Below are positions 15,606 to 50,478 of a stretch of 64,000 nucleotides of DNA, one piece after another. This DNA comes from Acidimicrobiia bacterium (GTDB lineage: Bacteria > Actinomycetota > Acidimicrobiia > Spongiisociales > ZC4RG35). A program made the position numbers and the translations under genes. Position 1 is the stretch's first letter. The number at the start of each line of letters is the position of its first letter. Under the pieces are notes generated by a model. That model made no database searches and was not told the origin of the DNA. It saw only the letters and a program-made list of their open reading frames with translations. The DNA lies in NCBI GenBank assembly GCA_965215185.1, contig OZ244034.1, positions 928,001-992,000 of the forward strand, written 5' to 3'.

Positions 15606-15885
15606 ACTCCTGGCATGCGAACCGACCAGAAAATCAATTGGTTGAAGACTTGAAAAGATTAGGCACCATCTTGACAGCGCGTTCACGGGCATGGCTGTCG
15701 AAGCTGACAGCATGTGTCGGCCAAGCAGCCAACGACACCCCAAGGCGAGATCACCCCGGAGCCCTCTCCTCCAAAGGACAAAACCGTGCTACCTCGCCGG
15801 GCGAAACCAGCTTCCGCGGGCTACCAACCGAGGAAACGGAGACCGGACACTCCGAACCCGAACCACCAGACAACGGAATCACCCC

Positions 15886-15991
15886 GATGCTCCTATGTTT
15901 GTCATCAGAGCACTCAAACCTCGCATCTCAGACCGCATCCGGACCCACCTCCAACCACCCAAAGTCCACCTTCATTTGACAGAGGAGCTCA
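15886..15991. mobile_element. IS110 remnants: A-type right end (minus, ~15886-15904) and C-type 3' end (plus, ~15903-15991)
   Basis: Minus strand TGACAAACATAGGAGCATC; IRALKPRISDRIRTHLQPPK matches the C-terminus of 56066-57094; end TTTGACAGAGGAGCTCA. Confidence 0.8.
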
Positions 15992-16145
15992 CCTAGGTGC
16001 CGACGCTGAGCGCTATCTGGAGGCTGCCTTTATCGGGTAGGCTCCCGATAGCGTTTGCCTAGTAGGTAAACAGAAGGCGCCGAGCGCGCTCCGCGCTTCG
16101 GCCTGTGGGCGAATCCAAAGACCACGAGGGCGACGAAGAGGTACA

Positions 16146-17096
16146 GTGACCACGACAGGCACCGATGTTCTTGATGTAAGAGCGGCGGCGCGCCGAAATA
16201 GGCGGCGCCGCCTCGTTTCCTACGTCATCCATCTGTTTCTGGGGACACTGCTCTTTCTGCTGTTCTGGCAGTTGTTGGCCGCGCCCTTCTCGCCCCTTTT
16301 CTCTCTCATTCCGACGCCGATCGCCGCTGTCACCCACTTCGGGGAGAACCTCTTTTTCAGTGAGGCGATGATGGATCGGTTTGTTCACGCCTGTCCGGAC
16401 CTGTTGGATGAGTTGGAGTTTAAAAGGGGTAGGATGTCCGATCTTCCTGATCACTGTTTTGGGTACATTCTCCATCTGGTGCGGACCACCCGCAATATCC
16501 TGATCGCAGTTGCGCTGGGGACGTTCTTCGGCTTGGGGGTTGGACTGAGCAGTCTGCTCTTACCGTGGATTGCCGATGTGGTCACACCGGTAGCCGGTTT
16601 TTTTGGGACTACCCCTATTTTTATCGTGGCGCCTTTCTTCGTGATCTGGTTCGGGATCGAGTATCCCCTGTTGACCACCATCGGGGTTGTTGCCTTCTAC
16701 ACCACCCTTCTCATGTATTTCTTCACCCGCCGGGCGGCCGAAAATATACCGGTGGGGATCATTGAATCAGCCCTCACCCTGGGAGGAGACCGCCGCACTA
16801 TTTTCCGATGGGTTTATCTGCGGGGAACGATTCCGGAGATCGCGGGAGGTTTTCGGATCGCTTTGGGAGGAGCTTGGGGTTTGGGGACGCTGGTGGAGGT
16901 GCTGGGACCACAGATGGGAGGAGGATTTCTGATCCGCATGTGGAGCTACGTGATGGGCCACTCGGAGGGGCCGACCGCGGTGGTCTCTCTGATTCTTTTC
17001 TTCGGCGTGCTGGCTTTGGTAGTCGACGGGATCCTGGTACTGGTGATACGTTCCTTCACCAGTTGGTCCGAGGCCGGTCGCCGACTGGGTTTGTAG
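16146..17096 (+). CDS. ABC transporter permease, nitrate/sulfonate/taurine family
   Basis: Hydrophobic, with EAA-like loop IIESALTLGG. Confidence 0.85.
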   Translation: MTTTGTDVLDVRAAARRNRRRRLVSYVIHLFLGTLLFLLFWQLLAAPFSPLFSLIPTPIAAVTHFGENLFFSEAMMDRFVHACPDLLDELEFKRGRMSDLPDHCFGYILHLVRTTRNILIAVALGTFFGLGVGLSSLLLPWIADVVTPVAGFFGTTPIFIVAPFFVIWFGIEYPLLTTIGVVAFYTTLLMYFFTRRAAENIPVGIIESALTLGGDRRTIFRWVYLRGTIPEIAGGFRIALGGAWGLGTLVEVLGPQMGGGFLIRMWSYVMGHSEGPTAVVSLILFFGVLALVVDGILVLVIRSFTSWSEAGRRLGL

Positions 17097-17109
17097 GCAA
17101 GGAGAAACT

Positions 17110-17828
17110 ATGTCAACTGTTGTGAGCTTTGAGAACCTGTGGTGTGTGTTTGAGCACCGATCGGGGAATTTGGTGCATGCCCTCGAAGTTGTCGAATTTC
17201 ATGTGGAGCCGGGCGAGTGAGTGTGCGTGGTGGGGAGGTCCGAGCATGGCAAGACCACCCTGTTGAGGGTGTTGGCCGGTCTTCAGCCTCCTAACACCGG
17301 CGCGGTAAAGTTGGGAGACACGACGGTGATGGGGCCGGTTAGCGACCGGGCCATGGTTTTCCAGCAGGACACGGTGTTCCCCTGGTTGCGTGTCCGGGAT
17401 AACGTTGAGTTCGGTCTCAGGGCTACCAAGCTTCCCGAGGGCGATCGGAACGAGATCACCAATTATTGGTTATCGGCGGTTGGGTTGAGGAGTTCGCCGA
17501 TTCTTGGTCGCGGGAGTTGTCTGGGGGTATGAGAAAGCGGGTAGCTTTGGTGTCGCGATGGCGGTGGGTTCGGATGTTGTCTGAGGTTCTTTGGAACTTG
17601 TGGGTTGAGATCCAGAAGACCAGTATCTTCGTCACCCATGACATTGAGGAAGCACTGATTCTTGCCGACCGGGCGATCCTCCTGGCCGAATGCAAGCTGG
17701 TGAACGACATCGCGGTTACGCTCTCTCGTCCTCGCGACGAGGCTGTCCGGGCCAGCACCGAGGCGGTCGGTGTCTTCAAGATCCTGGCCCATTTGGGTAT
17801 AACCGAGGAGGAGGGGACGACGGTTTGA
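17110..17828 (+). pseudogene. ABC ATP-binding subunit (TauB/SsuB-like), disrupted
   Basis: In-frame TGA at 17218, altered Walker A GRSEHGKTT, frameshift near 17490, LSGGMRKRV and FVTHDIEEA present, Walker B region missing. Confidence 0.85.
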
Positions 17829-19015
17829 ATCAGCCTGGCCGCTTCCGAAGCCTTTATTGGATTGGATGGCTGATCTGGGCTGTCCTGATTCCGTGGTTGC
17901 TTATTCGGGTGCCTGAAAGCCTACCTTTCGTTACCTGGACACATGGTGAGGGTGCGATCAACGTCACATGGTCCTATATCGTTTCCGGGTTGGTGTTGTT
18001 CTGGGCCTGGCCGGTTGTGTCCCGCACGACCCGGGTCAAGGACCGGCTGATCAGGGCGGGACGGGGGATAGCGGCGGGGCCGCCGATGCTGTGGGCTGGT
18101 ATGCGCCGTAGCCCGCTTTTCTTCGTCTCTTGGGTGGTGTTGCTGGTGGCGTGGCAGGTGGCGTCTTATGTTGTGCCTCCGGGAACTCTCGAGCATCCCC
18201 TGGTTCCCGGATGGGACTACGTGTTCGGTGACACCTTCTTCGGAATGTCCAGGTTCTGGACCGTCCGCGTGTTAGACCTTGGGTTCGCGACCTTCAATCT
18301 CGACGGACTGGCGCCCCTTCCCATCTATGGTGGGGAGGCGACCTGGCCGGCCGTGTTCCTCGCAATCGCTTATCACTCCGGTACGACCCTTTTCAGGCTG
18401 TTGTGTGGCATGGTGGTCGGCATGACGTTCGGTCTCCTGACCGGTCTGGCCCTTCCCTACTGGCCGGCGGTGCGCAAGACCGCGTGGGCGCCCATGAACT
18501 TCCTGCGGATGATCCCCCTCCTAGTGGCGGTTCCCTGGTTGCAGTTGGTCGTGGGCTCCACCTTCTTTGGTATCACCATCTATATAGCCTTCGGAGTGTG
18601 GACGATCCTGGTGGTGGCCACCATGAATGCGGTCGCCAACGTGCCCGACCGGTACATCGAAAGTGCCCGTACCCTGGGCGCCTCCCGGCTGCACACCTAT
18701 TACAAAGTGATAGTGCCGGGGTCGATTCCAGAATTGCGCACCGCCATGCTGCTCTCCATGGGGGGGAGCTGGTCACTGGCGATCGCCGCCGAGTTCCTGG
18801 GTTTCTCCGCCGGGCTGGGGTACCTGGCCCACGCGGCGGTGCAGGAAACTAACACCGCCCGGCTGTTGATAGTGGCGTTTATCGTGGCTCTCTATTCTCT
18901 CACGACTTTCTTCTTGCTCAACGAGGGATTCAAGAAGGCGGTTAGTTGGATGCCACAACGAGCCACCGGCAAGACGGATATCAGAAAGATGGCCGGGGCG
19001 GCAGGAGGGGCCTGA
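17825..19015 (+). CDS. ABC transporter permease, nitrate/sulfonate/taurine family
   Basis: YIESARTLGAS EAA motif; TTG start overlaps the upstream stop. Confidence 0.85.
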   Translation: MNQPGRFRSLYWIGWLIWAVLIPWLLIRVPESLPFVTWTHGEGAINVTWSYIVSGLVLFWAWPVVSRTTRVKDRLIRAGRGIAAGPPMLWAGMRRSPLFFVSWVVLLVAWQVASYVVPPGTLEHPLVPGWDYVFGDTFFGMSRFWTVRVLDLGFATFNLDGLAPLPIYGGEATWPAVFLAIAYHSGTTLFRLLCGMVVGMTFGLLTGLALPYWPAVRKTAWAPMNFLRMIPLLVAVPWLQLVVGSTFFGITIYIAFGVWTILVVATMNAVANVPDRYIESARTLGASRLHTYYKVIVPGSIPELRTAMLLSMGGSWSLAIAAEFLGFSAGLGYLAHAAVQETNTARLLIVAFIVALYSLTTFFLLNEGFKKAVSWMPQRATGKTDIRKMAGAAGGA

Positions 19016-19273
19016 TCACCGAGCTCACCGGTCGAGGAAGCCCTTGCCCTACGAGATCTTGGGAGCATACCTCTCCACTCGTGCCGCGCGGGTCTTGGTT
19101 TTGATTGAGGACAGATGTCCAGATCTGACCGAAGCGCCCAAGGGCTTAGATTCCCGTCTCATCAGCCGCAAGCAGGTAAACCGGTTGCCGACAGATGTCC
19201 CTTGAACCGAATCAGCTATAGGACAGTATGTGGGGCGAACTGTCAAGACCGGTCACCTAGCTGGTGTTTTGCA

Positions 19274-19320
19274 GGGACTCACAATCTATTGGTTGCAGGT
19301 TCGAGTCCTGCCGGGGCCAC
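19274..19320 (+). mobile_element. tRNA 3'-half fragment (Ile2/Met CAT-like), att core
   Basis: GGGACTCACAATCTATTGGTT GCAGG TTCGAGT CCTGC CGGGGCCAC: T-arm intact, no 5' half; homologous to 57866-57909. Confidence 0.75.
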
Positions 19321-19798
19321 ACCGTTTCATCCGGTTTCGCGAAGTTTCAAACACCAATAAAAGCCCAAGCCAATAGCTATATATTGCACCATGGGGGAAG
19401 TCAAACACGCTCTTGTGGGGTTCCTTGACTTTCCAAGATGTTTCTGGTACAGCTAGTGCCCTGGCAGCGCCGACTCTTGGGCTGATCGCCGGTTCGTGGC
19501 AACGCCCCCTCAAACTAGTGGCCGGGACTTCCGCTCAAGATCTTGGGGGACTGCGGCTACGAAAAGACCGGACCTGGTGCTATCGACCTCCCCGGACGGA
19601 ATCCCGGTTACCCACCAGCACCTACCGGTAGGTCCTCGACGACGCGCCAAGGTGCGCCGAACCAGCGATGCTCGGAATCGTTCCCAGCCAGGTCCGGAAG
19701 GCTGAGACCGGATAGTGGGTTTGGTGTGTCCGACCAGACATCTGCAGTCGGTTCGATCCGATGCGGAGAGCATCCAATAGGGCCGGTGCCCTGCTGGA

Positions 19799-20746
19799 TC
19801 ACCGCCAGCGGTGATCCAGCACCATGTTCAACCCAGCCCCGGCGAGCAGGCCCATCGCCAGAAGATACAACCACAGCAGCAGGGTCAGAGCCCCACCCAG
19901 CAACCCGAACACCGCGTTCACACCGCTGGAGGCCAACTCGAGGTAGGAGCGGAAACCTGCCGACACAACCAGCCACCACACGGTTCCCACCACTGCTCCT
20001 GGCAACTCCCGTCGCCATGGCGCCCGCCTGCGGGACGCTATGTGGTAGACGGAGGTGGCCCACAAGACCACAACTGCGAACACCACAGGCCAGCGCAACC
20101 ACCCCCAGGCCGTGGTAAACGCGGAGCCGGCCCCCAGACGCTCGGCCACCTCCTCGCCGCCGCCCAGCAAGGGACCGACCACCACCAGCGCGGCCACCAG
20201 CGCGGCCACCAGAATCGTGGAAGCCGTCAGGCCCAAACCCAGAACCCGGGTGGACAGCCAGCTTCTGCGCTGTTCGTGGCCATATGCCACGTCCAGAGCG
20301 CGTACCACGGCGACGAAGCCCCGCGACGAGGCGTACATCGTCAAAACGATGCCAACCGTGATCAGTCCCGCATTCGACCGTTCGAAGAGCTCCGCGATGG
20401 TAGAGCGCAGCGTGTTGTCGGAGCCGAAGATCTCATGCACCTGGTTGAGTAGCCATTGCTCGGTGTCGGCAGCCGCGTCTTCGCCCATCACCACGTCAAG
20501 CGAACCAAGCGCGGCAGCGAATACCACCACAGCCGGGAACAGCCCGAGGAGCGCGAAGAAAGCGATCTCAGCCGACAGCCCACCCACCCGAGCCCTTGAC
20601 CAGTCGAGGCGAAGCTCCTCTGCGAACCGTACAACCTGACGTCCTGAGCTGCGGAGCTGCGGCTGTGTGAAACGGCCCATACCGGTCGATACTACGGTTG
20701 GCGACCGCGGACGGCTCGCCCATGAGGAGACCCCCCTAGACAGCAT
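19799..20746 (-). CDS. YihY/BrkB family membrane protein (start may be ~20680)
   Basis: SAEIAFFALLGLFP...ALDVAY...LLLWLYL pattern. Confidence 0.88.
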   Translation of the reverse strand: MLSRGVSSWASRPRSPTVVSTGMGRFTQPQLRSSGRQVVRFAEELRLDWSRARVGGLSAEIAFFALLGLFPAVVVFAAALGSLDVVMGEDAAADTEQWLLNQVHEIFGSDNTLRSTIAELFERSNAGLITVGIVLTMYASSRGFVAVVRALDVAYGHEQRRSWLSTRVLGLGLTASTILVAALVAALVVVGPLLGGGEEVAERLGAGSAFTTAWGWLRWPVVFAVVVLWATSVYHIASRRRAPWRRELPGAVVGTVWWLVVSAGFRSYLELASSGVNAVFGLLGGALTLLLWLYLLAMGLLAGAGLNMVLDHRWR

Positions 20747-20880
20747 GCGACTGGGGCTGATCGGGAACCTGTTGGCTCGGCTGGCAGGCTTCCGCGGCGA
20801 CCTCGCCTGTGCTTTCTCGCCGGGAGATCATCTACCGGCACCGGTTCGGCCGTGGCCCGGTTGACGAACCGGGACGCTAA

Positions 20881-23268
<2,388 letters not shown>

Positions 23269-23429
23269 GACCGTATGACATCCTCAGCGGGGCAGCCCTC
23301 CGTTACCCGGGGCTGACCGACCCCGGTAGCGGCGGCATCGGTTGGCGCGGGAAGTCGACCACCCGGATCCACTTGTGGTCTGCCAAAACGTGGCGGAGGC
23401 CGCCCCTGCCTGTAAGTCGGGTAGGGATC

Positions 23430-23600
23430 CGGTTATGCGGGCTTGGTGGCGTCGGATGCGTAGATTGTGGCCGTGGAGTGTTGGGGGCGGGTCGATGGGG
23501 TGGTAGACCTCTCGGGCGATGTGCCGTTTAAGACAGTGGATGATCTCTCGCCGGGTATTACCTTCGGTCTGGCGCCGTTGGTGTATTCGATCGTGCACTG
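23430..23600 (-). mobile_element. IS110 A-type transposase C-terminal remnant
   Basis: EGNTRREIIHCLKRHIAREVYH matches the C-terminus of 50496-51724. Confidence 0.8.
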
Positions 23601-23713
23601 GTCGTGGCGCACGCGGCCTCTAACAGTGGAGGAGTCGGCATCGATATGGCATCCTGTCCTTTGGGACCGGCTCTGTGTAGCGCTGGCGTCGAACCGCCTT
23701 GCAGCCTGTCTTT

Positions 23714-40520: not shown

Positions 40521-41681
40521 TCAGATTGCTAAGTAGTCACCCCACTGTTGCATGACGGGAATCCTGTCATTGAATAGGCTGGTCCGGAGGTATGCGTCGT
40601 CTACTCCGTGAGCCAGGGCGTAATCTGCCACTGCGAATCTCACCTTGTGGTCGGCGGCCCAGTCCATGAAGGATGATCGCATCCCATGTACAGTGGCGTC
40701 TATTCCGTTGTCCCGGAGCAGTTTGAGGAGGCTGCCGGAGTGCATGACCTTTTCTCTGGGCGAGGGGAACACCAGTCCTGTGAGGTTTCCTGTGAGTTCT
40801 TTTGTGAGTTGGGCGGTTTCCTTGAGGACCTGCTTGGCTTGCTTGCTGAGCGGCACCAGATGCGATTGGTCACCCTTGGTGTTGTGGTCCGGTATGGTCC
40901 AAACAGCCTTTAGTAGGTCGATTTGGTCCCATGTGGCTTTTCGGACCTCGCCGCTGCGGGCTGCTGTCAGGGTGAGGAACTTCAGGGCGTTGACAGCTCT
41001 CGGGTAGGCCCCGGAGGCTTCAACGATTCTGATAGCGTCCCCGACCTGGCCGTGGGGAAGGGCTTTGTGGTGTTTCGTACTGTGTTTGATCTTTGGTAGG
41101 TAACTGACGGTTTTAGGGGTCGGGTCGGAATCGATGAAGCCGTTTCCTATCGCCCATTTCATGACGGCGCTGATCCGGTTCACTAGGTCTTGAGCTGTTG
41201 GATGTTTGGACACCCATATGCTGGCAAAGACTTCGAATAGGTCTTGGTGGGTGATATTGTCGATCGGCTTGTTCCCAATGTGGGGAAACACATGGTTTTC
41301 GAAGCTGTTTTCCCAGTCCTGGCGACTTCGGCTTCCCTCCCGCCAGAAGGGGGAGCGATACTCGATGTAGTCGGCGACTACTTTCCGAAAGATGGGCGGT
41401 CCCGCGGCTGCTGGGTCGCGGTCTTCTTGGACGGCCTGTTGGTAGGCGAGTGCCTTTCGGCGGGCTTCGGCCAGTGTGACTTTGGCGTAGCTGCCCAGCC
41501 CGCGGTTGGTGTATTTGCCGTTGATACGGAGGCGGACGCTCCACGTTTTTGATAGCAGGCCCGGGGTTTTGGTTTCTTTGACTAGGAGGCTCAAACCGTT
41601 ACCGCCCGGACCGTCTGAGTATCGGCCGGGTGGTAGGACGGTTCTTATGGACGTGTCAGCTATTCTTTTCGGTCTTGCCAT
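40521..41681 (-). CDS. P4-type tyrosine integrase, apparently intact
   Basis: Arm domain GLGSY..VTLAEAR; catalytic R(SGE), K, HGMR, LAH, AY. Confidence 0.92.
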   Translation of the reverse strand: MARPKRIADTSIRTVLPPGRYSDGPGGNGLSLLVKETKTPGLLSKTWSVRLRINGKYTNRGLGSYAKVTLAEARRKALAYQQAVQEDRDPAAAGPPIFRKVVADYIEYRSPFWREGSRSRQDWENSFENHVFPHIGNKPIDNITHQDLFEVFASIWVSKHPTAQDLVNRISAVMKWAIGNGFIDSDPTPKTVSYLPKIKHSTKHHKALPHGQVGDAIRIVEASGAYPRAVNALKFLTLTAARSGEVRKATWDQIDLLKAVWTIPDHNTKGDQSHLVPLSKQAKQVLKETAQLTKELTGNLTGLVFPSPREKVMHSGSLLKLLRDNGIDATVHGMRSSFMDWAADHKVRFAVADYALAHGVDDAYLRTSLFNDRIPVMQQWGDYLAI

Positions 41682-42396
41682 GGTTCTTGGTGAGGTTGCG
41701 CTGATTTCTGGGAGTGGGGGTCGAGGTCCTTGGTTGAGGGTTGAGGATTGGCTGAGTGGAATGGGTGGGCTGTGTGCATCGCCTATCCGAGGATGCCTCA
41801 ATGAGTGCTGATGTTATGCGGGTTGCAGTTGCGGGGTGTTCGTGTGACCGGTATGGTGGTCGACACTTTCACGGGGTTGGTGGTGGGGTGGTGCTGTCAA
41901 GGAGCTGTCCAAGTGCCCGGGTTGTGGGTGTGGTGTTGGCGGGTTCATGCCCGGCGCCGGAGGGAGTTCCGCCACGTGGAGGTCGGCGGCCGTCTGACAG
42001 TGTTGTTGTACCCAGCGGCGGCTAGTGTGCAGACAACTGCGGGAAGCGACACTTGGAGACCCGTTTCCGGTTCGAGGGGAGTGTGACCCGTGGCTTGGCG
42101 CGCGGTCTGGTCAATGGTGCCCGGGGTGATGTCTATCCGGTGGTTTCCGCCTCAGGATTAGTTTGGCATGGGTTCTGGTTGACGACTGGTCCGGGGTGTC
42201 ACAGGGTGCGCACAGTAGTTGCCAATGGTTCCCGCCTATACCGTGCCGCTTTCCAGCTTTGCCCTTCCCGAGCGTGTATGTCCTTGACCGGTTACATGTC
42301 GCCAGCAGGTTTCGCCCACGGGCTCACCATGCGAATATGGTGTTCTTGCTTCTCTGGGCACGGTCCATGGATCGCTTTGTCTGGGTGTTTACATGG

Positions 42397-43185
42397 TTAG
42401 TTGGGTTTTGTGGTTCTGGTCAGGTACACAGCCCATGCTTCCATGACTAGACGTCTTGCTTCTAGCATGTGGAACCGGGCACGGGCGGCTCCGGCTCTTC
42501 TGGGGGTGTACGCCCATAAATGTGTGTCGGTTTGTTGTGCCCATGTCGGGACACTGATGGCATCGACACTTGTGGGGGTGTGTTCCAATACCAGGTCGGC
42601 GACGTGGGTGGGCACCCCGGTCTTGGCGCACCAGTCACGAAACGAGGATCGCATACCGTGAGGGGTGCAGCCCACATTGTTCTCTTTGCACAGTTTTGAG
42701 AGGGTGCCGTCGGAGAGGTGCCGTCCGCTGCGGGAGGGGAACACCGGTCCGTTACCGCCGGTTTGCTCTCGGGCTTGATCCAATATGGCGAGGGCTGCTT
42801 GGCTGAGCGGAACCTGGTGGGGTGTCCCGGACTTCATTCGATCGGCTGGGATGGTCCAGGTTGCGGTGGCGTAATCGATTTCTTCCCACCGAGCCCCCCG
42901 GGCCTCACCGGGTCTGGTGGCGGTCAGAGTCTGGAACTTGAAAAGGGCGATGGTCGCCCAATGAGCTTTTGTTGAAGCTATGACCCGGAGAACCTCGGGT
43001 ACCTGACTGTGGCCCACCGATGGGTAGTGCTTGACCTTGGCCGGTCCGAGGGCGACGGAGACCAGTGGGGTTGGGTCGCTGTCACGATAGTTCTTGGCGA
43101 CCGCCTGTCCGATGACTGCTCGGATGTAGTAGAACAGATGCCGGGCGGTTTCCGGTTTGGTGTGCCATATGGGCTCCAAACACGC
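42397..43185 (-). pseudogene. P4-type integrase, N-terminally truncated by IS110 ends
   Basis: TATRPGEA, MKS, HGMRSSFRDW; homology stops at ~43185. Confidence 0.85.
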
Positions 43186-43233
43186 CTGTGAGTATGTAGG
43201 GGGTGCTCTCGATTTGACAACCATAGGAGCATC
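43186..43233 (+). mobile_element. 48-bp IS110 relic: B-like left end joined to A-type right end
   Basis: CTGTGAGTATGTAGGGGGTGC resembles the B left end; CTCGATTTGACAACCATAGGAGCATC is identical to the A right end. Confidence 0.7.
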
Positions 43234-43282
43234 GGTACGGTTCATAATTCTACCAACGTAATTACAACAGTGTCAACAGGCC

Positions 43283-44146
43283 CTAGCCGAGCTCGAACCA
43301 CGTCGGCTGGTGGTCCGATCCGGCCGCGTCATCGTCGATCCACGCCGACTTGACCAACGACGCCAGGCCAGGGGTCACGAATCCGTAGTCGAGCTTCAAG
43401 CCGACCTCGAACCCCTGGCTCTCGTCGTACCAGGTGATTCCCTCCTCGACAGGGTTGCCGGCCGCGGTCCACGTGTCCACCAGCCGGTCACCTGCGAGAG
43501 TACGGCCGTAGTAGTAGTCAGCCTCGCCGACGATGAGCGGGTACTCGGCCGACGTTGGAGTCAGGTTGAAGTCGCCCATCGCCACGAACTCAGCGGGCGC
43601 TGGGCTCTCGGCGATACCCAGCCATTCGATGCCGGTGACCGACACTCCGTCAAAGGGAACTCGAAACAGAAGCGGCAGCAGGTACTCGATCGCGGTTCGC
43701 CGTAGCCGGGGGTTGACCGCATCGAGATGGAGCGAGTAGCACCGAAGAGGCCCAGACGGGGCGTCGATGACTGCTTCAAGCGCGCCGAGTTGATATCCGT
43801 GGGCATTGATGACCCTGACTCTCGGCAACAGCAGATTCCGGCGCGACAGGATCGGCCAGCGGGAAAGGACCACGTTGCCGAACTGAAGTCGACGATGCTC
43901 GATTGGCCCACTGGCAGTTCTCGGGCTCGCGTCGAGATCGACGTTGGCTCCGTACACCCAGTGATGCTGAGTGAGCAACTCGCCCAGCTGGGCTGGTTGA
44001 TCTTTGTCAGGAACCGCGTCGACGTTGCGCACGACTTCCTGCAGTGCGATCACGTCGGCGCCACGGACCGCGTTGGCGATTCTCCCGAGGTCGAAGCGGC
44101 CGTCCTTTCCCTGTGAGTAGCGGATGTTGTATGACACGAACTTCAT
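43283..44146 (-). CDS. Endonuclease/exonuclease/phosphatase family protein
   Basis: SYNI, ALQEV, GDFN, LDY, SDH. Confidence 0.92.
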   Translation of the reverse strand: MKFVSYNIRYSQGKDGRFDLGRIANAVRGADVIALQEVVRNVDAVPDKDQPAQLGELLTQHHWVYGANVDLDASPRTASGPIEHRRLQFGNVVLSRWPILSRRNLLLPRVRVINAHGYQLGALEAVIDAPSGPLRCYSLHLDAVNPRLRRTAIEYLLPLLFRVPFDGVSVTGIEWLGIAESPAPAEFVAMGDFNLTPTSAEYPLIVGEADYYYGRTLAGDRLVDTWTAAGNPVEEGITWYDESQGFEVGLKLDYGFVTPGLASLVKSAWIDDDAAGSDHQPTWFELG

Positions 44147-44183
44147 CAGAGCGCCCTCGGAGGAGCCGGCAGGGCCGCGTCGG

Positions 44184-45317
44184 CTAGTTGATGGCCCATT
44201 GCTGGGGACGACGCGCTGAACTCACTGTCGCGCCCCCCTCCTCGCTGATCGGACGACGGGGCTTACCGACTATCGACGAGCCTTCCCGATCGGCTAGATG
44301 GCACGCAGCCCAATGGTTGGGGATGATCTCACGGAGCTCGGGCACCTCAGCACGGCAGCGGTCGACAACCAACGGGCAGCGCGTCGAGAACACGCACCCG
44401 GGCGGTGGCGCCGCGGGACTCGGAACCTCTCCGACGAGAGGGATGCGGGTCCGGCCGGACTCGATCATCGGATCTGGAACGGGAACCGCCGACAACAAGG
44501 CCTGCGTGTACGGGTGGAGCGTCGCCTCGAACAGAGACTCAGTCTCGGCGAGCTCGACGATGTGTCCGAGATACATCACCGCCACTCGGTCGGAGATGTG
44601 CTCCACCATCGAGAGGTCGTGGGCCACGAACAGGTAGGCGATTCCGAACTCGTCCTGAAGATCGGCCAGGAGGTTGATCGCCTGCGCTTGGATCGACACA
44701 TCGAGCGCAGAGATGGGCTCGTCGCAGACGATCAGGTCGGGGCTGAGGGCGAGCGCCCGGGCGATGTTGATGCGCTGGCGCTGACCCCCGGAGAACTCGT
44801 GGGGGTAGCGGGTGCGGTGAGCGGCCCGGAGGCCCACCAGGTCGAGAAGCTCGAGCACCCGGTCGAGGATCTGTTGCGGTGCCATCTCGGTGTGGACCCT
44901 CATCGGCTCGCCGATGATGCGGCCTACGGTGTGACGGGGATTCAGCGACGCGTACGAGTCTTGGAAGATCATCTGCATACGCGGTCGGAGCTTGCGCAGC
45001 TCCTTCTCGCCGAGGGTCGTGAGCTCGATGTCGCCCAGCCAGACCTGGCCGGAAGAAGGGCGATGGAGCTGCAGGACAGCCCGCCCGGTCGTGGACTTGC
45101 CGCACCCGCTCTCGCCGACCAGCCCGAGCGTCTCGCCCGCGAAGAGCTCGAAGCTCACACCATCGACCGCCTTGATCGGCATGTCGATCGACTTGCCCGG
45201 GAAGTACTTCGTCATGTTCACGACCCGGAGCACCGGCTCAGCAGGACTGCTGGCCGCGGCCACCGGCTCCGACCTGGCGACGGGCTCGACCGGCTCAGTG
45301 GAAGCGAGCTCAGTCAT
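44184..45317 (-). CDS. Peptide ABC ATPase (DppF-like)
   Basis: GESGCGKS, FSGGQRQR, DEPISALD. Confidence 0.93.
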   Translation of the reverse strand: MTELASTEPVEPVARSEPVAAASSPAEPVLRVVNMTKYFPGKSIDMPIKAVDGVSFELFAGETLGLVGESGCGKSTTGRAVLQLHRPSSGQVWLGDIELTTLGEKELRKLRPRMQMIFQDSYASLNPRHTVGRIIGEPMRVHTEMAPQQILDRVLELLDLVGLRAAHRTRYPHEFSGGQRQRINIARALALSPDLIVCDEPISALDVSIQAQAINLLADLQDEFGIAYLFVAHDLSMVEHISDRVAVMYLGHIVELAETESLFEATLHPYTQALLSAVPVPDPMIESGRTRIPLVGEVPSPAAPPPGCVFSTRCPLVVDRCRAEVPELREIIPNHWAACHLADREGSSIVGKPRRPISEEGGATVSSARRPQQWAIN

Positions 45318-46317
45318 GTCGGGGCGCTCCCGCCTCGACGTCGTAGAAACACGCGACGTGTCGGCCGCGGGTCGGCTCGAACAGCGGCGGCACCTCGCTT
45401 ATGCAGCGGTCGAACACATGGGGGCAGCGAGCCGCGAACGGGCAATGGGTTGGCTCGTCGATGAGATCGGGCGGCATACCGGGGATGCTGATCAACCGGT
45501 CGGCCCGGTTGGCCTTCTTGGGCAGAGCGTCTAGGAGCCCGATTGTGTACGGGTGCAGCGGCCGCTGGTATAGGCTGGCCACATCGGAGATCTCTACGAG
45601 CTGGCCGGCGTACATGACTGCTACTCGGTCGGCCAGACCAGCGACAACGCCGAGGTCGTGCGTGATCCAGATCAGGGCCAGCCCGAGCTCGTCGCGCAAG
45701 TCGTGCATAAGCTCCACGATTTGGGCCTGTATCGTCACGTCGAGCGCCGTCGTCGGCTCATCGGCAATCACCAGCTGGGGGTCGCAGGCCACTGCGACAG
45801 CGATCATGACGCGCTGTCGCATGCCTCCGGAGAACTCGTGAGGGTAGGCGTCGGCGCGTCCCACGGCGTCGGGTATCCCGACCCTCTCCAGCAGTTCGAT
45901 GGCGCGCTTGCGAGCCTGCCGCCTCGATAGACCGAGATGGGTGCGGATCACGTCGATGAGCTGGGTGGAGATTCGCACTGTTGGATTGAGGGAGCTCATG
46001 GGATCCTGGGAAACGAACCCGATCTCGGCCCCTCGAACCCGTCGCAGCCGGCGCTGGGACTCCTCAAGGAGGCTGATCGTTCCGTCCGCGGTTTCGAACG
46101 TCGCGGTGCCGTTGGATATCCGTGCCGGTGGCTCGGCGAGCAGCCGCAGCAGGGCGAGCATCGTGACAGACTTCCCGCTTCCGCTTTCGCCCACGATGGC
46201 CAGCGTCTCACCCTTGGCGACGGAGAGCGTCACTCCGTTGACCGCATGCACGGTTCCTTCCGGGATGTCGAACCGGACCTCAAGGTTCTTCACGTCGAGA
46301 AGTTTCGTTGTGTTCAC
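45310..46317 (-). CDS. Peptide ABC ATPase (DppD-like)
   Basis: GESGSGKS, FSGGMRQR, DEPTTALD; GTG start overlaps the dppC-like stop. Confidence 0.92.
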   Translation of the reverse strand: MNTTKLLDVKNLEVRFDIPEGTVHAVNGVTLSVAKGETLAIVGESGSGKSVTMLALLRLLAEPPARISNGTATFETADGTISLLEESQRRLRRVRGAEIGFVSQDPMSSLNPTVRISTQLIDVIRTHLGLSRRQARKRAIELLERVGIPDAVGRADAYPHEFSGGMRQRVMIAVAVACDPQLVIADEPTTALDVTIQAQIVELMHDLRDELGLALIWITHDLGVVAGLADRVAVMYAGQLVEISDVASLYQRPLHPYTIGLLDALPKKANRADRLISIPGMPPDLIDEPTHCPFAARCPHVFDRCISEVPPLFEPTRGRHVACFYDVEAGAPRHD

Positions 46318-47273
46318 TGTTTCACTCGTCGAGATCGGGGGTCGAGCGCGTCGCGCAACCAATCGCCGAACATGTTGAGCCCGAGCCCGGCAAGCAGAAT
46401 GGCGAAGCCCGGTGCGAGCGATATCCACGGACGGATCGCGAGCACGCCTCGACCGGCGTTGATCATGTTGCCCCAGCTCGGCGTGCTGGGCGGTACGGAC
46501 AGACCGAGGAATCCGAGGCCGGCCTCATAGAGGATCATGGCCGACATCTCGAACGTGGCCAGCGTGGCCAGCGGGCCGACAAGGTTGGGCAGCAGGTGCA
46601 GCCACAGGATCTGGCCCTCCGGTACGCCGACGTTCCTCGCTGCCTCGATGAACATGCTCTCCCGGAGCTTCAAGACCTCACCCCGCGTCACTCGGGCGAA
46701 CACCGGAATCGAAGTGAAACCGAAGATGAGGATCACGTTGATCAGGCTTCGCCCGACGACGGCGGCGAAGAAAACCACGAACAACAGGTAGGGCAGCGAC
46801 AGGATCAGGTTGATGAAGCCGACGATGGCGGCGTCGATCTTGCCGCCTCGGTACCCGGCGATAAGACCGATCGCCATCCCCAGCGTGATGGCGATTCCAA
46901 CGCCACCGAGAGCCACACCAAGCGAGACGCGGGTTCCGAAGATGATGCGGCTGAGAATGTCACGTCCGAGTGTGTCCGTGCCGACCAGGTAGTCGGTGGA
47001 GCCATCATAGGTCCAGAACGGCGGGGTATTGGCGTCACTCAGAGTCTGTTGGAGAGGATCATGGGGGGCGATCCACGGAGCGAACACCGCAACGATGAGC
47101 AACATGATGAAGACGAAGGCCCCGAACGTGCCGCCCTTGGACTGGCGAAGCAGCCTCAGGGCATCACGAATCCGGGCCCGGATTCGCAGGTCCTTCTCAA
47201 TATCGACTTGATGGCCGGTTTCGATCTCGCCGGCAGCAGAATCAGCGCCTGCCCGAGCGCTGTGATCAGTCAT
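46314..47273 (-). CDS. Peptide ABC permease (DppC-like)
   Basis: GTDTLGRD, FIEAA, LGFLGL. Confidence 0.92.
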   Translation of the reverse strand: MTDHSARAGADSAAGEIETGHQVDIEKDLRIRARIRDALRLLRQSKGGTFGAFVFIMLLIVAVFAPWIAPHDPLQQTLSDANTPPFWTYDGSTDYLVGTDTLGRDILSRIIFGTRVSLGVALGGVGIAITLGMAIGLIAGYRGGKIDAAIVGFINLILSLPYLLFVVFFAAVVGRSLINVILIFGFTSIPVFARVTRGEVLKLRESMFIEAARNVGVPEGQILWLHLLPNLVGPLATLATFEMSAMILYEAGLGFLGLSVPPSTPSWGNMINAGRGVLAIRPWISLAPGFAILLAGLGLNMFGDWLRDALDPRSRRVKQ

Positions 47274-48304
47274 GTGATCCCCTCTCCGTATGGCTTCGGC
47301 ATCGTCGCCGACGCATCGTCCGCAGTTCGTTTGCGCCGACGGTTCCCCGTCTGTCCCAGCTTGCCCACTCTGATTCGCGGGTCGGCGACTGTGTACAGCA
47401 CGTCAGCAAGAAGTGAGAAGAATATGACGAGGAGCGCGCCGAAGAAAGCTATTCCCTGCACAAGCTGGAAGTCGCGGTTGCTTACCGCCTCGGCCAACAA
47501 CCCTCCCGCTCCCGGCCAAGCAAAAACAGCTTCGATATACAGCGATCCACCCAGCAGCGCCCCGATCTGCAGGCTCATTACGCTGATGAGCGGGATGAGA
47601 GCGTTGCGCAGGATGTAGCGTCTGTAGATGACCAGCGCTCGGAGGCCTTTGCTGCGAGCGATGCGGACGTACTCCTCGTTGACGATCTCGAGCACTGACG
47701 ATCTCGTGAACCGCAGAAGCTGAGCCATCGGAAACAAGCCGAGCGCGACCGCCGGCAAGATGATCGACTTGTTAGGTATGGTGAAAAACCACATCGATAT
47801 CGTGCCGCGCCCGAACGACGGCAGCCACCTGAGCTGAACGGCGAACACCACGATGAAGACCAACGCCAGCCAGAAATTCGGAATCGTCTGGCCCAGCAGA
47901 CCGAGACCGCGCGCCGCACTATCCCAGCGGCCGCCCGCCTTGACACCCGCGAGGATGCCGAGCGGTACTCCGACCGCTACCGCTAAGGCCATCGCCGCGA
48001 GGCCGAGCTCGATCGTCGCCGGCATCCGGTCGAAGACCACTTCTCGTACCGGGACCTTGTAGCGAAGCGAACTACCGAAGTCGAGGCGGGCCGCGTCCGC
48101 CACGAAGTCGACAAACTGCTCAACAACGGTCTTGTCCAGGCCATACGCCTGCCGTGCCGCCTCTCTTTGCTCCTGGGTTGCCTCCCGGGGAACTAGCAGG
48201 TTGGTCGGGTCCCCTGACACTCGCAGCATCAAGAAGACGATCACCATCACGCCGAGCACCAGCAGCAGTGCCTGGCCTATGCGCCCGACTAGGTACCTCT
48301 TCAC
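47270..48304 (-). CDS. Peptide ABC permease (DppB-like)
   Basis: GDP, EYVRIARSKG, EAVFAWPG, DPRI. Confidence 0.92.
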   Translation of the reverse strand: MKRYLVGRIGQALLLVLGVMVIVFLMLRVSGDPTNLLVPREATQEQREAARQAYGLDKTVVEQFVDFVADAARLDFGSSLRYKVPVREVVFDRMPATIELGLAAMALAVAVGVPLGILAGVKAGGRWDSAARGLGLLGQTIPNFWLALVFIVVFAVQLRWLPSFGRGTISMWFFTIPNKSIILPAVALGLFPMAQLLRFTRSSVLEIVNEEYVRIARSKGLRALVIYRRYILRNALIPLISVMSLQIGALLGGSLYIEAVFAWPGAGGLLAEAVSNRDFQLVQGIAFFGALLVIFFSLLADVLYTVADPRIRVGKLGQTGNRRRKRTADDASATMPKPYGEGIT

Positions 48305-48405
48305 CGACTCTCTCCCTCTGCTCGGCCCTTTTCATCTTGATTGGTGGGACCGAGGCGCAACACCCCGGCCCCACCAATGGATGACAGCTCAGTAACCTGC
48401 GTCGA

Positions 48406-49944
48406 TCAGCCGGCCACCTCCAAGTCCCAAAGCCAGTACTCCTCGGCCGAACGCGGCTTGTAGTTGGCGACCCGATCACTCGTTGCTTCGAACGAGAACG
48501 GCACGTAGAGATAGATGAACGGTGGGTCGTCGTACATCTGCTGCTGCAATTGCCGGTACAGATCCGCACGAGCGTTGTCGTCGGGGGTCGCGAGTATCTC
48601 AAGGAGGAGGCTGTCAACCACCGGGTCGGACCATGCTGAGTAGCTCGCAGCTTGGCCGCCCATGGCCCCTTGCAGGCGGTCCCAGCCCTCGGGATTGGCG
48701 TTCGACCAACTGTCACCGAACAACGGCGGCAACTGCTTGTCCGCCTCCAGATCCCAGTACGCCCCGGACTCCATGATATCGAGCGACACGTTCACTCCTA
48801 CCTCGCCGAGCTGGGCCGCGACGGATTCGCACACCTGCTCGAAGTTGGTGTAGGCAGCTGACGGGCAGGCGAATCCGATGTCGAACCCCTCGGGATACCC
48901 GGCTTCGGCCAACAACTCCCGCGCCCGATCAGGGTCGTAGGAGAAGGGCGCGAGCGCATCGTTGTAACCGAAGTCGGCGGCCGTCATCAGCCCGGTGGCT
49001 CGGACGCCGTTGCCGTTGAACAGAGCGCCGATGACGCCATCGACGTCGACCGCATGGTTGAGGGCTTGGCGCACTCTGGGATCTTCGGTTGGTTGACCCA
49101 CACCGGAGGTGAGGTTGTTGAACGCGATGTAGTAGACCCGGTTGGTCGGATACTCAATGACGTTGACTCCGTCTACGCCCTCCAGCGATGCGGCTTCGTC
49201 GGGGCTGAGGCGGCTCACGATGTCGACTTCGCCCGTCTGGATCGCTGCGGCCCTGGTGGAGGACTCGGTGATCGGCCGGAAGATGATCCGGTCGAGCTTG
49301 GGGTAGCCCTTGCGCCAGTAGTTCGGGTTCCGGTCCAACACGATGCGGTCGCCCCGGACCCACTCGGTCAGCATGAACGGACCGGTGCCGATCGGCTCTT
49401 GGCCGAAGCCCGTCAGCCCGACCTCGGAGTAGTACTTGGGAGGAACGAAGAACCATATGGCGCCGGTGAGGCCGAGGAACAGTGCGTTGGGTTCCTGTGC
49501 GACTAGCTCGACGGTGTATTCGTCGATCTTGTTCACCTCGGCCGCTCGTTCGTAGTAGTTGAAGTAAGCGTTCTCCGGCTGCTTTTGCACTTCCCACGAG
49601 AACACCACGGCGTCCGCGTTGAACGGCTCGCCGTTGTGGAACATCACGTCCTCGCGCAGCTTGAACGTGTACCTGAGACCATCGTCGGACACTGTCCACG
49701 ACTCGGCGAGGGCCGGCTCGAACTCCAGGTCGTCGTTGATCCACACCAGCGGGTCGAATATCTGGTTGGACACGTTGCCCGCGTTTCGCTCGGCTGCGTT
49801 CGCACCGTCGAGCGCGTTGGGCTGCGTCGTGAGCGCGATCATCAGCTCGCCGCCCGGGGCTGTGCCACAAGCCGCCGCCATCAGAGCGAAGACGCCCACA
49901 AGCAAACACAATTTCCTCATTCTGGATATACGGTTATATGTCAT
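48406..49944 (-). CDS. ABC substrate-binding lipoprotein, family 5
   Basis: MAAAC lipobox, FHNGEP, GTGPF, VRQALN. Confidence 0.92.
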   Translation of the reverse strand: MTYNRISRMRKLCLLVGVFALMAAACGTAPGGELMIALTTQPNALDGANAAERNAGNVSNQIFDPLVWINDDLEFEPALAESWTVSDDGLRYTFKLREDVMFHNGEPFNADAVVFSWEVQKQPENAYFNYYERAAEVNKIDEYTVELVAQEPNALFLGLTGAIWFFVPPKYYSEVGLTGFGQEPIGTGPFMLTEWVRGDRIVLDRNPNYWRKGYPKLDRIIFRPITESSTRAAAIQTGEVDIVSRLSPDEAASLEGVDGVNVIEYPTNRVYYIAFNNLTSGVGQPTEDPRVRQALNHAVDVDGVIGALFNGNGVRATGLMTAADFGYNDALAPFSYDPDRARELLAEAGYPEGFDIGFACPSAAYTNFEQVCESVAAQLGEVGVNVSLDIMESGAYWDLEADKQLPPLFGDSWSNANPEGWDRLQGAMGGQAASYSAWSDPVVDSLLLEILATPDDNARADLYRQLQQQMYDDPPFIYLYVPFSFEATSDRVANYKPRSAEEYWLWDLEVAG

Positions 49945-50044
49945 GTTTTCGCCTCCTGGTTGTTGCTGAAACGCCCCGGGTATCCCGGAGTGTGTTTTAC
50001 TTGAGTCCAGCTCGCTGGACTCGCTTCTGTTAATCATGGTAGTT

Positions 50045-50180
50045 GGTCCGGAACTGGCTTCGAGGGTGCGGTGCCGTTGGCCATCGCGAACTTAGCTTTG
50101 GTGGTGTAACGGGTGGGGTCTCCCACTCCGGCAAGGATCTCGGCTGCGACCAGGGCACCGATGCCGTAAATGTGAGCCTG
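50045..50180 (-). mobile_element. IS110 C-type transposase internal fragment
   Basis: HIYGIGALVAAEILAGVGDPTRYTTKAKFAMANGTAP matches 56066-57094. Confidence 0.8.
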
Positions 50181-50478
50181 TATACATGTCTGTGTGAGGT
50201 GGGTTCTCTGAATCGCACCGATGCTCCTATTTTTGTCAAATTGATGCTTCTATGATCTCCAAATCGGGTTCGGGGGGTGGGTGGGCGTTTCGGTGGAGGG
50301 GTGGTTTCGGGGGTTGGTTGGTGGGTTTTCGAGGAGTCGGTAGAGCTGTCGGGCGATGTACCGTTTGAGACAGCGGCGGGTTTCGCGGGTGGTTTTGCCT
50401 TGGCTGGTGCGTTTGCCGATGTAGGCCCGGGTTTTGGGACAGTATCGGGAGCGGCTGATGGCGATGGTGTGGATGGCT

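What the first reader, a model, noticed from the sequence alone, without database searches (positions are those of the whole stretch)
15875..50232. A-type IS110 right ends abut IS3-family inverted repeats at the same nucleotide three times
Seen: after GGAGCAT the flanks read CGGTACGGTTCA (43233-43244, +), CGGTGCGATTCA (50220-50209, -) and CGGGGTGATTCC (15886-15875, -). Their reverse complements are TGAACCGTACCG, TGAATCGCACCG and GGAATCACCCCG, i.e. the first 12 nt of IS6110-like IRs such as TGAATCGCGCCG at 15605, 5341 and ~54855. Inference: a sister of A with the same donor end but different target guides specialises on IS3 IRs, analogous to IS4321/IS5075 in Tn21 IRs. This would be natural guide reprogramming within one family.
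Basis: partly seen in the sequence, partly recalled or inferred. Interest (0 to 1): 0.7.

Follow-up and report, generated by a model that had tools for sequence, protein, structure and literature searches.

The report
IS110 elements inserted in IS3 ends
Three short scars in this window are the right ends of RNA-guided IS110-type jumping genes that had landed at one fixed position inside the terminal repeat of IS3-type jumping genes, a natural retargeting of a kind already described for related elements.

Summary
ATAGGAGCAT is followed by a 12-mer of the form CGGnnnGnTTCn at all three cited places. Genome-wide there are 5 such junctions among about 29 IS110-type right ends.

The 12-mers of sites 1 and 2 are identical to the terminal 12 nt of intact IS3 copies elsewhere in the genome. 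Site 3 is degenerate.

The A family is an IS110-group, bridge-RNA element. Its left end folds into two internal-loop stem-loops. Its guide segments track the flanks: left guide 7.0/9 matches against 3.97 shuffled, right guide 4.1/5 against 1.6, with 0 of 5000 shuffles reaching either value.

A sister copy outside the window (genome 1097483-1098934, intact 404-aa transposase) carries the left guide TTATGAAAC and a right guide reading CGGCAC. Its two flanks together rebuild a complete IS3 inverted repeat split at nucleotide 12.

No IS3-targeting left end lies in the window itself. The three sites are right-end remnants of about 25-61 nt, left by nested insertions and deletions.

Other guide variants of the same family sit in ISL3 ends, IS110 right ends and an IS110 transposase gene.

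Precedents exist: IS1383 in IS1384 repeats, IS4321/IS5075 in Tn21 repeats, and ISEc21 in IS3 transposase genes. This is therefore a new member of a known kind.

The parts
43173..43232 (+). Site 1: remnant of about 60 nt of an A-family IS110 right end, ending ...CGATTTGACAACCATAGGAGCAT. To its left lies an N-terminally truncated tyrosine-recombinase gene (42397..43245, minus).
   Evidence: blastn against A copies gives 43173-43233. Alignment; Pfam.
43233..43244 (+). Site 1: CGGTACGGTTCA, the reverse complement of nt 1-12 of an IS3-family terminal inverted repeat. Beyond it lies unrelated flank (TAATTC...).
   Evidence: It is identical to the terminal 12 nt of the intact IS3 copy 1108879-1110201.
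50221..50243 (-). Site 2: the last 23 nt of an A-family right end (CAATTTGACAAAAATAGGAGCAT). The rest was cut off by the B-type IS110 whose right end stops at 50244.
50209..50220 (-). Site 2: CGGTGCGATTCA, which is IS3 repeat nt 1-12. It is followed at 50208-50173 by the terminal 36 nt of yet another repeated element, which has 7 copies in the genome.
   Evidence: It is identical to the terminal 12 nt of the IS3 copy 1622742-1624040.
15887..15913 (-). Site 3: about 27 nt resembling an A-family right end (GTGCTCTGATGACAAACATAGGAGCAT). It abuts a plus-oriented 3' fragment of a C-type IS110 (about 15899-15989).
15875..15886 (-). Site 3: CGGGGTGATTCC, a degenerate 12-mer resembling an IS3 repeat. 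It has 2 mismatches to the nearest genuine IS3 end in the genome.
50480..51956 (-). The window's full-length A-family IS110. Its left end with the bridge-RNA region is 51956-51725. Its transposase gene starts at ATG 51724 and is frameshifted after about 80 codons. Its right end stops at GGAGCAT 50481, with a shared C at 50480. It is inserted in the transposase gene of the B-type IS110.
51903..51911 (-). Left target guide of the window's A copy (AAACTCAAC). It equals its left flank CAACTCAAC.
51880..51885 (-). Right target guide of the window's A copy (GGCTTG). It is the reverse complement of its right flank CAAGCC.
51786..51819 (-). Donor-binding loop. GATAGGAGC has the sequence of the right end, and CTGAGTGG is the reverse complement of the start of the left end (CCACTCA).
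50243..53097 (-). B-type IS110, interrupted at 50480-51956 by the A copy. Its transposase fragment is 52912..51941 and its right end ATAGAAGCAT is at 50253-50244.
62400..62418 (+). Fourth A-family right-end remnant, followed by CGATGAGCC. This is the terminal 9 nt of an ISL3-family end, not of an IS3 end.
14152..15606 (-). Resident IS3-family element with an intact terminal repeat (...CTCTACCAAACC|CGGCGCGATTCA ending at 15606). It served as the comparison for the 12-mers.
   Evidence: ALIL frameshift pseudoknot at 15147-15276. rve domain, IS3 NCBIfam match and repeat.

Best explanation

How the element works. Its roughly 230-nt left end encodes an RNA with two internal loops.
- The first loop holds a 9-nt left target guide, which has the same sequence as the left flank. 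It also holds a right target guide of about 6 nt, which is the reverse complement of the right flank.
- The second loop holds guides for the element's own joined ends. ATAGGAGC matches the right end, and (A/C)TGAGTGG is the reverse complement of the start of the left end.

How the IS3 repeat is hit. A lineage whose target loop reads TTATGAAAC and GTGCCG pairs with the IS3 repeat on both sides of nt 12. Recombination at that C/G leaves repeat nt 1-12 next to the right end. The rest of the repeat, with the IS3 body, stays next to the left end. This cuts the IS3 off from its own tip.

What happened in the window. Later events removed everything except 25-61 nt of right end plus the 12-mer. These events were insertion of other IS110 elements into the A right end, as the B type did at site 2, and deletions.

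Shown versus inferred:
- Shown: the junction sequences, the guide-flank match, the RNA fold and the rebuilt IS3 repeat.
- Inferred: the RNA-guided mechanism itself, by homology to IS621.
- Inferred: the order of the nested events.
- Inferred: that the TTGACA in the right end is the -35 box of a promoter completed only in the excised circle.
For: 1. Family membership. P0001 (the sister's transposase) scores 202 bits on NF033542 'IS110 family RNA-guided transposase' against a cut-off of 140. The window copy has the DEDD_Tnp_IS110 and Transposase_20 domains. P0001 matches the IS621 transposase structure 8wt6 at E 1.7e-14.

2. RNA fold. Nineteen left ends from this genome and from Acidimicrobiia MAGs fold into two stem-loops, each with a large internal loop closed by GAC/GUC. 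Of 39 predicted pairs, 12 show double changes that keep the pair.

3. Guide-flank covariation. The left guide matches its own flank at a mean of 7.0 of 9 positions (28 non-redundant elements). Shuffled pairings give 3.97, with a maximum of 4.93; 0 of 5000 shuffles reach the observed value. The right guide matches at 4.12 of 5 positions (17 elements) against 1.61 shuffled, again 0 of 5000.

4. The IS3-targeting sister. Its left flank is CTCTATGAAAC|CC and its left guide is TTATGAAAC. Its right guide reads CGGCAC. Its right end is interrupted 13 nt before its tip by another A copy (1095994-1097485). Beyond that copy come the rest of the right end and CGGCACGGTTCA. Left and right flanks together equal the intact end CTCTATGAAACCCGGCACGGTTCA of the IS3 copy 1544357-1545673.

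5. IS3 identity of the left flank. The 240 nt left of the sister's left end encode ...FDNALAETTIGLYKTELI..., which matches the 3' parts of two other IS3-like copies.

6. Junction counts. There are 5 right-end/12-mer junctions in one register and 2 of 13 left ends on the complementary side of the repeat.

7. Independence. The three window junctions differ in 12-mer, outer flank and right-end sequence.
Against: - No left end with IS3 guides lies in the window. The left partners of the three sites are lost, so their guides cannot be read.
- The only intact IS3-type right guide (CGGCAC) differs from the window's flanks CGGTAC, CGGTGC and CGGGGT at 1, 2 and 3 positions.
- The right guide of the solo left end at 1095840 (reading CGGGCA) fits IS3 ends poorly.
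- Site 3 is short and degenerate. It overlaps sequence that can also be read as the C-terminal coding region of a C-type IS110 transposase.
- Three of 28 left ends (L006, L037 and one more) and 2 of 17 right guides do not fit their flanks.
- The junction pattern ATAGGAGCATCGGNNNGNTTC was found in 0 of 300 other genomes of the class. There is therefore no independent replication outside this genome, though repeats are often missing from MAGs.
- No expression or activity data were obtained.
Confidence: 0.85

Rival explanations
1. The direction is the reverse. IS3-family elements insert next to or into IS110 right ends, so the abutment reflects an IS3 target preference rather than IS110 targeting.
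For: IS3 ends do sit inside A-family sequence elsewhere:
- An intact IS3 end at 1295634 lies directly against a truncated right end (ATTTGCAAAGGATAGGAGCAT).
- An IS3 copy ending at 1282357 truncates the left end of the A copy at 1282358-1283655.
- An IS3 tip at 1095972 lies inside the donor loop of the solo left end.
Against: - At the five junctions only 12 nt of the repeat are present, not a whole IS3.
- The rest of the repeat lies on the far side of the IS110 at the sister copy, which is what an insertion into the repeat produces.
- The guide sequences inside the IS110 match both halves of the repeat.
Confidence: 0.04
2. The 12-mer is part of a variant right end of the element itself, that is, donor sequence rather than target DNA.
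For: The 12-mer recurs in a fixed register after an identical ATAGGAGCAT.
Against: - Other copies with the same right end carry unrelated flanks (CAAGCC..., CGATGAGCC..., CGACAACG...), and these match their own right guides.
- Homology between copies stops at GGAGCATC.
- The 12-mers equal the tips of IS3 copies that have no IS110 nearby.
Confidence: 0.03
3. Retargeting is real, but there is no specialisation. Guides drift, insertions land widely, and only those in dead or selfish DNA (other IS elements) survive selection. IS3 ends would then be one of many tolerated landing sites.
For: - Within one genome the family carries guides for ISL3 ends, IS110 right ends, an IS110 transposase gene and several unique sites.
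- Most copies are decayed and nested.
- Only 2 of 13 left ends carry IS3 guides.
Against: - The targets are not random places in IS elements. They are conserved, multi-copy sequences: repeat tips, the right-end -35 region and a conserved transposase motif.
- There are five junctions in the same register at IS3 tips of at least four different sequences. This points to repeated use of one site class.
Confidence: 0.25

Closest known systems
IS621 and other IS110-group bridge-RNA elements (Durrant et al. 2024, PMC11208160; passages read)
   Same: - DEDD plus Tnp-domain recombinase.
- Long non-coding left end upstream of the gene.
- RNA with a target-binding loop and a donor-binding loop.
[quoted passage not shown]
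- A -35 box lies in the right end.
- That paper already used natural covariation of guides and flanks.
   Different: - Only distant protein similarity (E 1.7e-14 to 8wt6).
- The nucleotide shared by both junctions is a single C preceded by a variable base, not a clear CT dinucleotide.
- The targets are tips of other mobile elements rather than REP sequences.
IS1383, which integrates into the inverted repeats of IS1384 (Muller, Lauf and Herrmann 2001; seen only as reference 13 of PMC11208160, paper not read)
   Same: An IS110-family element whose specific target is the inverted repeat of another insertion sequence.
   Different: Different host (Pseudomonas putida) and different target IS. I could not compare the position in the repeat or the guide sequences, because the paper was not available to me.
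IS4321/IS5075 in the 38-bp repeats of Tn21-family transposons (Partridge and Hall 2003; seen as a reference, paper not read)
   Same: Site- and orientation-specific insertion at one position inside the terminal repeat of another transposon.
   Different: Those elements belong to the IS1111 group, which has sub-terminal inverted repeats and a non-coding region downstream of the gene. The A family has its non-coding region upstream and no such repeats.
ISEc21 (Siddiquee et al. 2024, PMC11187229; passages read)
   Same: An IS110-type element with an upstream non-coding region whose RNA-specified target lies inside IS3-family elements. The authors also report natural re-programming among relatives.
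   Different: ISEc21 targets the codons around the second D of the IS3 transposase DDE motif. The A-family sister targets the terminal repeat at nt 12.

Membership tests
IS110 family, IS110 group (bridge-RNA elements) | Recombinase with a DEDD (RuvC-like) domain and a Transposase_20 domain | tested here: met
   The window copy hits PF01548 and PF02371. P0001 scores 202.2 bits on NF033542 against a cut-off of 140. P0001 matches the IS621 transposase 8wt6 at E 1.7e-14.
IS110 family, IS110 group (bridge-RNA elements) | Long non-coding left end upstream of the gene, short right end, no long terminal inverted repeats | tested here: met
   The left end is about 232 nt (51956-51725). The right end runs about 15 nt past the stop codon.
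IS110 family, IS110 group (bridge-RNA elements) | Left-end RNA folds into two stem-loops with internal loops | tested here: met
   RNAalifold on 19 left ends gave 39 pairs, 12 of them with compensatory changes. No Rfam family matched.
IS110 family, IS110 group (bridge-RNA elements) | Target-loop guides covary with the flanking target halves | tested here: met
   Permutation test: 7.0/9 against 3.97, and 4.12/5 against 1.61, with 0 of 5000 shuffles reaching either value.
IS110 family, IS110 group (bridge-RNA elements) | Donor-loop guides match the element's own right and left ends | tested here: met
   ATAGGAGC in the loop equals the right end. (A/C)TGAGTGG is the reverse complement of CCACTCA(T) at the start of the left end.
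IS110 family, IS110 group (bridge-RNA elements) | Conserved core dinucleotide shared by donor and target | tested here: inconclusive
   Only one C is common to both junctions. The base before it is T at the right junction and A/C/G/T at the left junction, where it tracks the left guide.
IS110 family, IS110 group (bridge-RNA elements) | Excised circle that rebuilds a promoter across the joined ends; RNA-dependent recombination | not testable with these tools
   TTGACA lies 13 nt before the right tip and CATACT near the left tip. The spacing of 17-18 nt in a joined circle is my inference, and no circle was observed.
IS1111 group | Sub-terminal inverted repeats of 7-17 bp and a non-coding region downstream of the gene | tested here: not met
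   The non-coding region is upstream, and only about 15 nt follow the stop codon.
IS3 family (the targets) | DDE (rve) transposase made by frameshifting, and terminal repeats starting TG | tested here: met
   For the resident copy 14152-15606: ALIL pseudoknot RF01497 at 56.9 bits, rve E 1.1e-8, and NF033516 at 84.9 bits, below its cut-off of 160 because the frame is broken. The repeat starts TGAATCGCGCCG.
IS3 family (the targets) | The 12-mers next to the IS110 right ends are tips of such repeats | tested here: met
   Sites 1 and 2 are identical to the tips of rve-bearing copies. At the sister copy the other half of the repeat and an IS3 transposase 3' remnant lie beyond the left end. Site 3 has 2 mismatches to the nearest tip, so membership is not secure for that site.

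The most novel reading that the evidence does not exclude
One IS110 lineage in this Acidimicrobiia genome has diversified its RNA guides to hit the conserved working parts of rival mobile elements. The targets are the tips of IS3 and ISL3 repeats, the -35 region in the right ends of other IS110 elements, and a conserved motif in an IS110 transposase gene. Bridge-RNA elements would then act as hyperparasites that disable competing insertion sequences while gaining harmless, multi-copy landing sites. In effect this would be an RNA-programmed contest among transposons inside one genome.
Probability: 0.25. Interest if true: 0.6.

Novelty: new member of a known kind. Interest (0 to 1): 0.4.

Why it matters
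It gives a clean natural example of bridge-RNA retargeting within one closely related family in a single genome. The donor ends stay the same while the target loops differ, and both halves of each target can be read.

Insertion at nt 12 separates an IS3 from its own tip. Such elements can therefore silence other insertion sequences and build the nested IS 'Russian dolls' seen here.

For annotation, it explains short orphan motifs (right-end remnant plus 12-mer) that could otherwise be mistaken for regulatory sites.

For engineering, the set of natural guide/target pairs from one scaffold (IS3 tip, ISL3 tip, IS110 end, coding motif) is a small ready-made table of tolerated reprogramming, including a variable base next to the shared C.

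The principle itself is already published, so the value is as a documented case rather than a new mechanism.

Tried and rejected
- **Chance.** Rejected.
- **Promoter or operator reading of TTGACA...ATAGGAGCAT at the three sites.** Dropped once the motif proved to be the end of full IS110 copies.
- **Site 3 as pure coincidence inside a C-type IS110 transposase pseudogene.** tblastn gave a firm match only for IRALKPRISDRIRTHLQPPK. The match upstream of it is weak. The 27-nt likeness to the site 1 right end argues for a real remnant, so site 3 is left as uncertain.
- **Search for IS3-targeting relatives in other genomes.** Thirty-eight loci came from genome contigs. None of the readable right flanks is IS3-like. 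L033:912 looked similar (guides ACGCTAAAC and CGGCGG), but its left flank is an ordinary 293-aa frame, not a transposase.
- **Junction pattern in other genomes.** Found in 0 of 300 other genomes of the class.
- **Rfam.** No family matched the left end.
- **Pfam on the short IS3 remnant beside the sister copy.** The frames I sent gave nothing (proteins 1-2). The remnant was identified by tblastn instead.
- **Public runs.** Only short contigs from metagenomes were laid. One joint, L001 1993->3484, skips 1490 nt, the size of the nested copy. It appeared in X5 (depth 19.9, side 21) and X8 (depth 2.8, side 18). It would be the un-nested right end lying directly on the IS3 12-mer. Sides under 30 at likeness 90 are unreliable by the tool's own warning, so I draw nothing from it. 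Depth and uncovered parts were not used.
- **The 9-nt direct repeat CAATTTGAC flanking the window's B-type element.** Not explained (note 3).
- **The exact core dinucleotide.** Could not be fixed from the sequences.
- **Unavailable sources.** Supplements of the two 2024 papers were not opened. Their target tables might already list elements that target IS3 repeats.

Full report
**Observation**

The three strings are in the sequence as described. ATAGGAGCATCGG with up to one mismatch occurs four times in the window against 0.08 expected, and no shuffle of 100 reached four. The fourth hit, at 62400, is followed by CGATGAGCC rather than an IS3-like 12-mer.

The window is G000:C1:928001-992000 of a 3.12-Mb, 60.7% G+C genome. 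Its nearest relatives in the genome collection are Acidimicrobiia MAGs.

Genome-wide, ATAG[GA]AGCAT occurs 35 times, and 29 of these carry the upstream signature of an IS110 right end. Four of the 29 are followed by CGG-N-R-Y-G-R-TTC-M. These are the three window sites and 1283645. A fifth junction of the same kind lies behind a nested element, at the position ending 1095994. That degenerate 12-mer occurs only 70 times on both strands of the genome, mostly as tips of IS3-type repeats. All five junctions have exactly 12 nt of repeat after GGAGCAT.

**What the 'A type' is**

The window holds one full copy at 51956-50480 on the minus strand. It has the DEDD_Tnp_IS110 and Transposase_20 domains, but its gene is frameshifted after about 80 codons. 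It sits inside the transposase gene of a second IS110 type, B (52912..51941; right end at 50253-50244).

A profile of the first 142 columns of the left end finds 13 left ends in the genome and about 30 in 38 loci from related genomes.

Aligned left ends show two short hypervariable blocks in an otherwise conserved sequence. One is a 9-mer after CTGAC(C/T)C. The other is a 6-7-mer before ATCTGTCGG.

RNAalifold on 19 left ends predicts two stem-loops, each closed by GAC/GUC around a large internal loop. The two variable blocks lie on the 5' and 3' sides of the first loop. The second loop holds ATAGGAGC, which is the sequence of the right end. It also holds (A/C)TGAGTGG, the reverse complement of the start of the left end. 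This is the layout described for IS621 bridge RNA, where the 5' side pairs with the bottom strand over 8-9 nt and the 3' side with the top strand over 4-7 nt (PMC11208160, passages read).

**Guides track the flanks**

| Guide | Elements | Own flank | Shuffled mean | Shuffled maximum | Shuffles reaching observed |
|---|---|---|---|---|---|
| Left (9-mer) | 28 non-redundant | 7.0 of 9 | 3.97 | 4.93 | 0 of 5000 |
| Right (reverse complement, invariant first C left out) | 17 | 4.12 of 5 | 1.61 | not noted | 0 of 5000 |

Exceptions exist: L006 and L037 do not fit their flanks.

For the window's A copy the guides are AAACTCAAC and GGCTTG. Its flanks are CAACTCAAC|C and CAAGCC, which together form a conserved stretch of the B-type transposase gene.

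**The predicted sister exists**

The copy at genome 1097483-1098934 (minus strand; L001:3484-4935) has an intact 404-aa frame, P0001. P0001 scores above the NCBIfam cut-off for 'IS110 family RNA-guided transposase'.

Its left guide is TTATGAAAC and its left flank is ...CAACCCTCTATGAAAC|CC. Its right guide region TTGGTGCCG reads CGGCAC as reverse complement.

Its right end is interrupted at TTGACAA|AC by another A copy (1095994-1097485). That copy's own guides (CTTGACAAA and CATAGA) fit the interrupted site. Beyond the nested copy come the remaining CTAGGAGCAT and then CGGCACGGTTCA.

Left and right flanks together read CTCTATGAAACC+CGGCACGGTTCA. This is identical to the intact right end of the IS3 copy 1544357-1545673.

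The 240 nt beyond the left flank encode an IS3-type transposase C-terminus. It matches two other IS3-like copies at 68.6% over 35 residues.

A solo 135-nt left end at 1095840 abuts ...AAGTCTCTACCAAAC|CC and carries the guide ATACCAAAC.

Repeat nucleotide 12 is present at both junctions. The crossover is therefore at that C/G.

**The three window sites**

- **Site 1.** About 60 nt of right end (43173-43232) and then the 12-mer. On the other side is a tyrosine-recombinase gene lacking its N-terminal third.
- **Site 2.** Only the last 23 nt of a right end remain, because the B-type element lies directly against them. The 12-mer is followed by the terminal 36 nt of another repeated element (7 copies). 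That element in turn lies in a fragment of a C-type IS110 gene (family D9). This is a nest of at least five layers.
- **Site 3.** About 27 nt resembling the site 1 right end, followed by a 12-mer two changes away from a genuine IS3 tip. It abuts an oppositely oriented 3' fragment of a C-type IS110. I count it as probable, not certain.

The three sites differ in 12-mer, right-end sequence and outer flank, so they are separate events. The 12-mers of sites 1 and 2 equal the tips of rve-bearing IS3 copies at 1108879-1110201 and 1622742-1624040.

No left end with IS3 guides lies in the window. The surviving CGGCAC guide differs from the three window flanks at 1, 2 and 3 positions.

**Wider pattern**

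- **ISL3 ends.** The copies at 3012712 and 3102723 carry the guides AACTGAAAT and CGATGA. They lie directly after ISL3 transposase fragments. The uninterrupted target ACTGAAATCCGATGAGCC ends two ISL3 copies, at 2507889 and 2519242. Seven right ends, including the window's at 62400, are followed by C[GA]A[TA]GA[GA]CC.
- **IS110 right ends.** Three left ends (1097485, 909138, 2341232) sit in the TTG(A/C)(C/A)AA|AC part of other IS110 right ends.
- **An IS110 transposase gene.** Two left ends (the window's and 374094) sit in the B-type transposase gene.

Most IS110 copies in this genome therefore lie in other mobile elements.

**Comparison with what is known**

RNA-guided target choice, natural covariation and natural re-programming in IS110 and IS1111 elements are published (PMC11208160 and PMC11187229; passages read). 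Three precedents for targets inside other mobile elements are on record:
- IS1383 in the repeats of IS1384 (title seen as a reference only).
- IS4321/IS5075 in Tn21-family repeats (title seen as a reference only).
- ISEc21 in a conserved coding stretch of IS3-family transposases (passage read).

I did not find an IS110 element described as targeting the IS3 terminal repeat. My searches were few (plus one failed search), and supplements were closed. I therefore claim only a new member of a known kind.

**Verdict**

The mechanism is inferred by homology and by guide-flank concordance; it has not been demonstrated.

Noticed in passing
window 62400-62418; genome 3012712, 3102723, 2507889, 2519242: A second guide variant of the same family targets the tip of ISL3-family elements. 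The uninterrupted target is ACTGAAATCCGATGAGCC, split about 9 nt from the end. Seven right ends in the genome are followed by C[GA]A[TA]GA[GA]CC, including the window's fourth right-end remnant.
   Followed up: partly
window 50480-51956 within 50243-53097: The window's A copy is inserted in a conserved coding stretch (CGCCAACTCAACCAAGCC) of the B-type IS110 transposase gene, and its guides match that stretch. A near-identical arrangement is at genome 374094.
   Followed up: partly
genome 1097485, 909138, 2341232 (L001:3486 for the first): Three A-family left ends carry guides (CTTGACAAA or TTTTGCAAA) for the TTGACAA/TTGCAAA part of other IS110 right ends. This is the presumed -35 box of the circle-junction promoter.
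   Followed up: partly
window 53097-53143 and 50235-50253: The B-type IS110 is flanked on both sides by CAATTTGAC, with an older B-like right-end remnant to the left. Its right guide predicts CATAGGAG (the right end of C-type IS110, as seen at genome 1621762 and 1656985), not the flank it actually has. Unexplained.
   Followed up: partly
window 50173-50208: The terminal 36 nt of another repeated element (7 copies in the genome, all ending ...ATACAGGCTC[GA]) lie between the IS3 12-mer of site 2 and a C-type IS110 gene fragment. The family of this element was not determined.
   Followed up: no
window 5415-7268: Fourteen tandem copies of a 111-nt unit (60-86% identical) lie inside a long minus-strand frame (5490..8717). 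This suggests a repeat-domain protein. Short CCG/CCT-rich repeats follow at 7885-8024.
   Followed up: no
window 40521-41801, 42397-43245, 55219-56028 (all minus): There are three tyrosine-recombinase genes. One is full-length (426 aa, with arm-binding, central and catalytic domains). One lacks its N-terminal part and ends against the site 1 remnant. One lacks most of the catalytic domain.
   Followed up: no
L006:2250 and L037:2244: Two A-family copies in related MAGs have guides that do not fit their flanks (3/10 and 4/10 on the left, 3/9 and 2/9 on the right). L006 sits in the ISL3-type target while carrying guides of the window's type. This may reflect recombination between copies or off-target insertion.
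   Followed up: no
genome 1295611-1295645, 1282346-1282357, 1095972-1095983: IS3-family elements in turn lie inside A-family sequence (a right end, a left end and a donor loop). The two families interrupt each other.
   Followed up: partly
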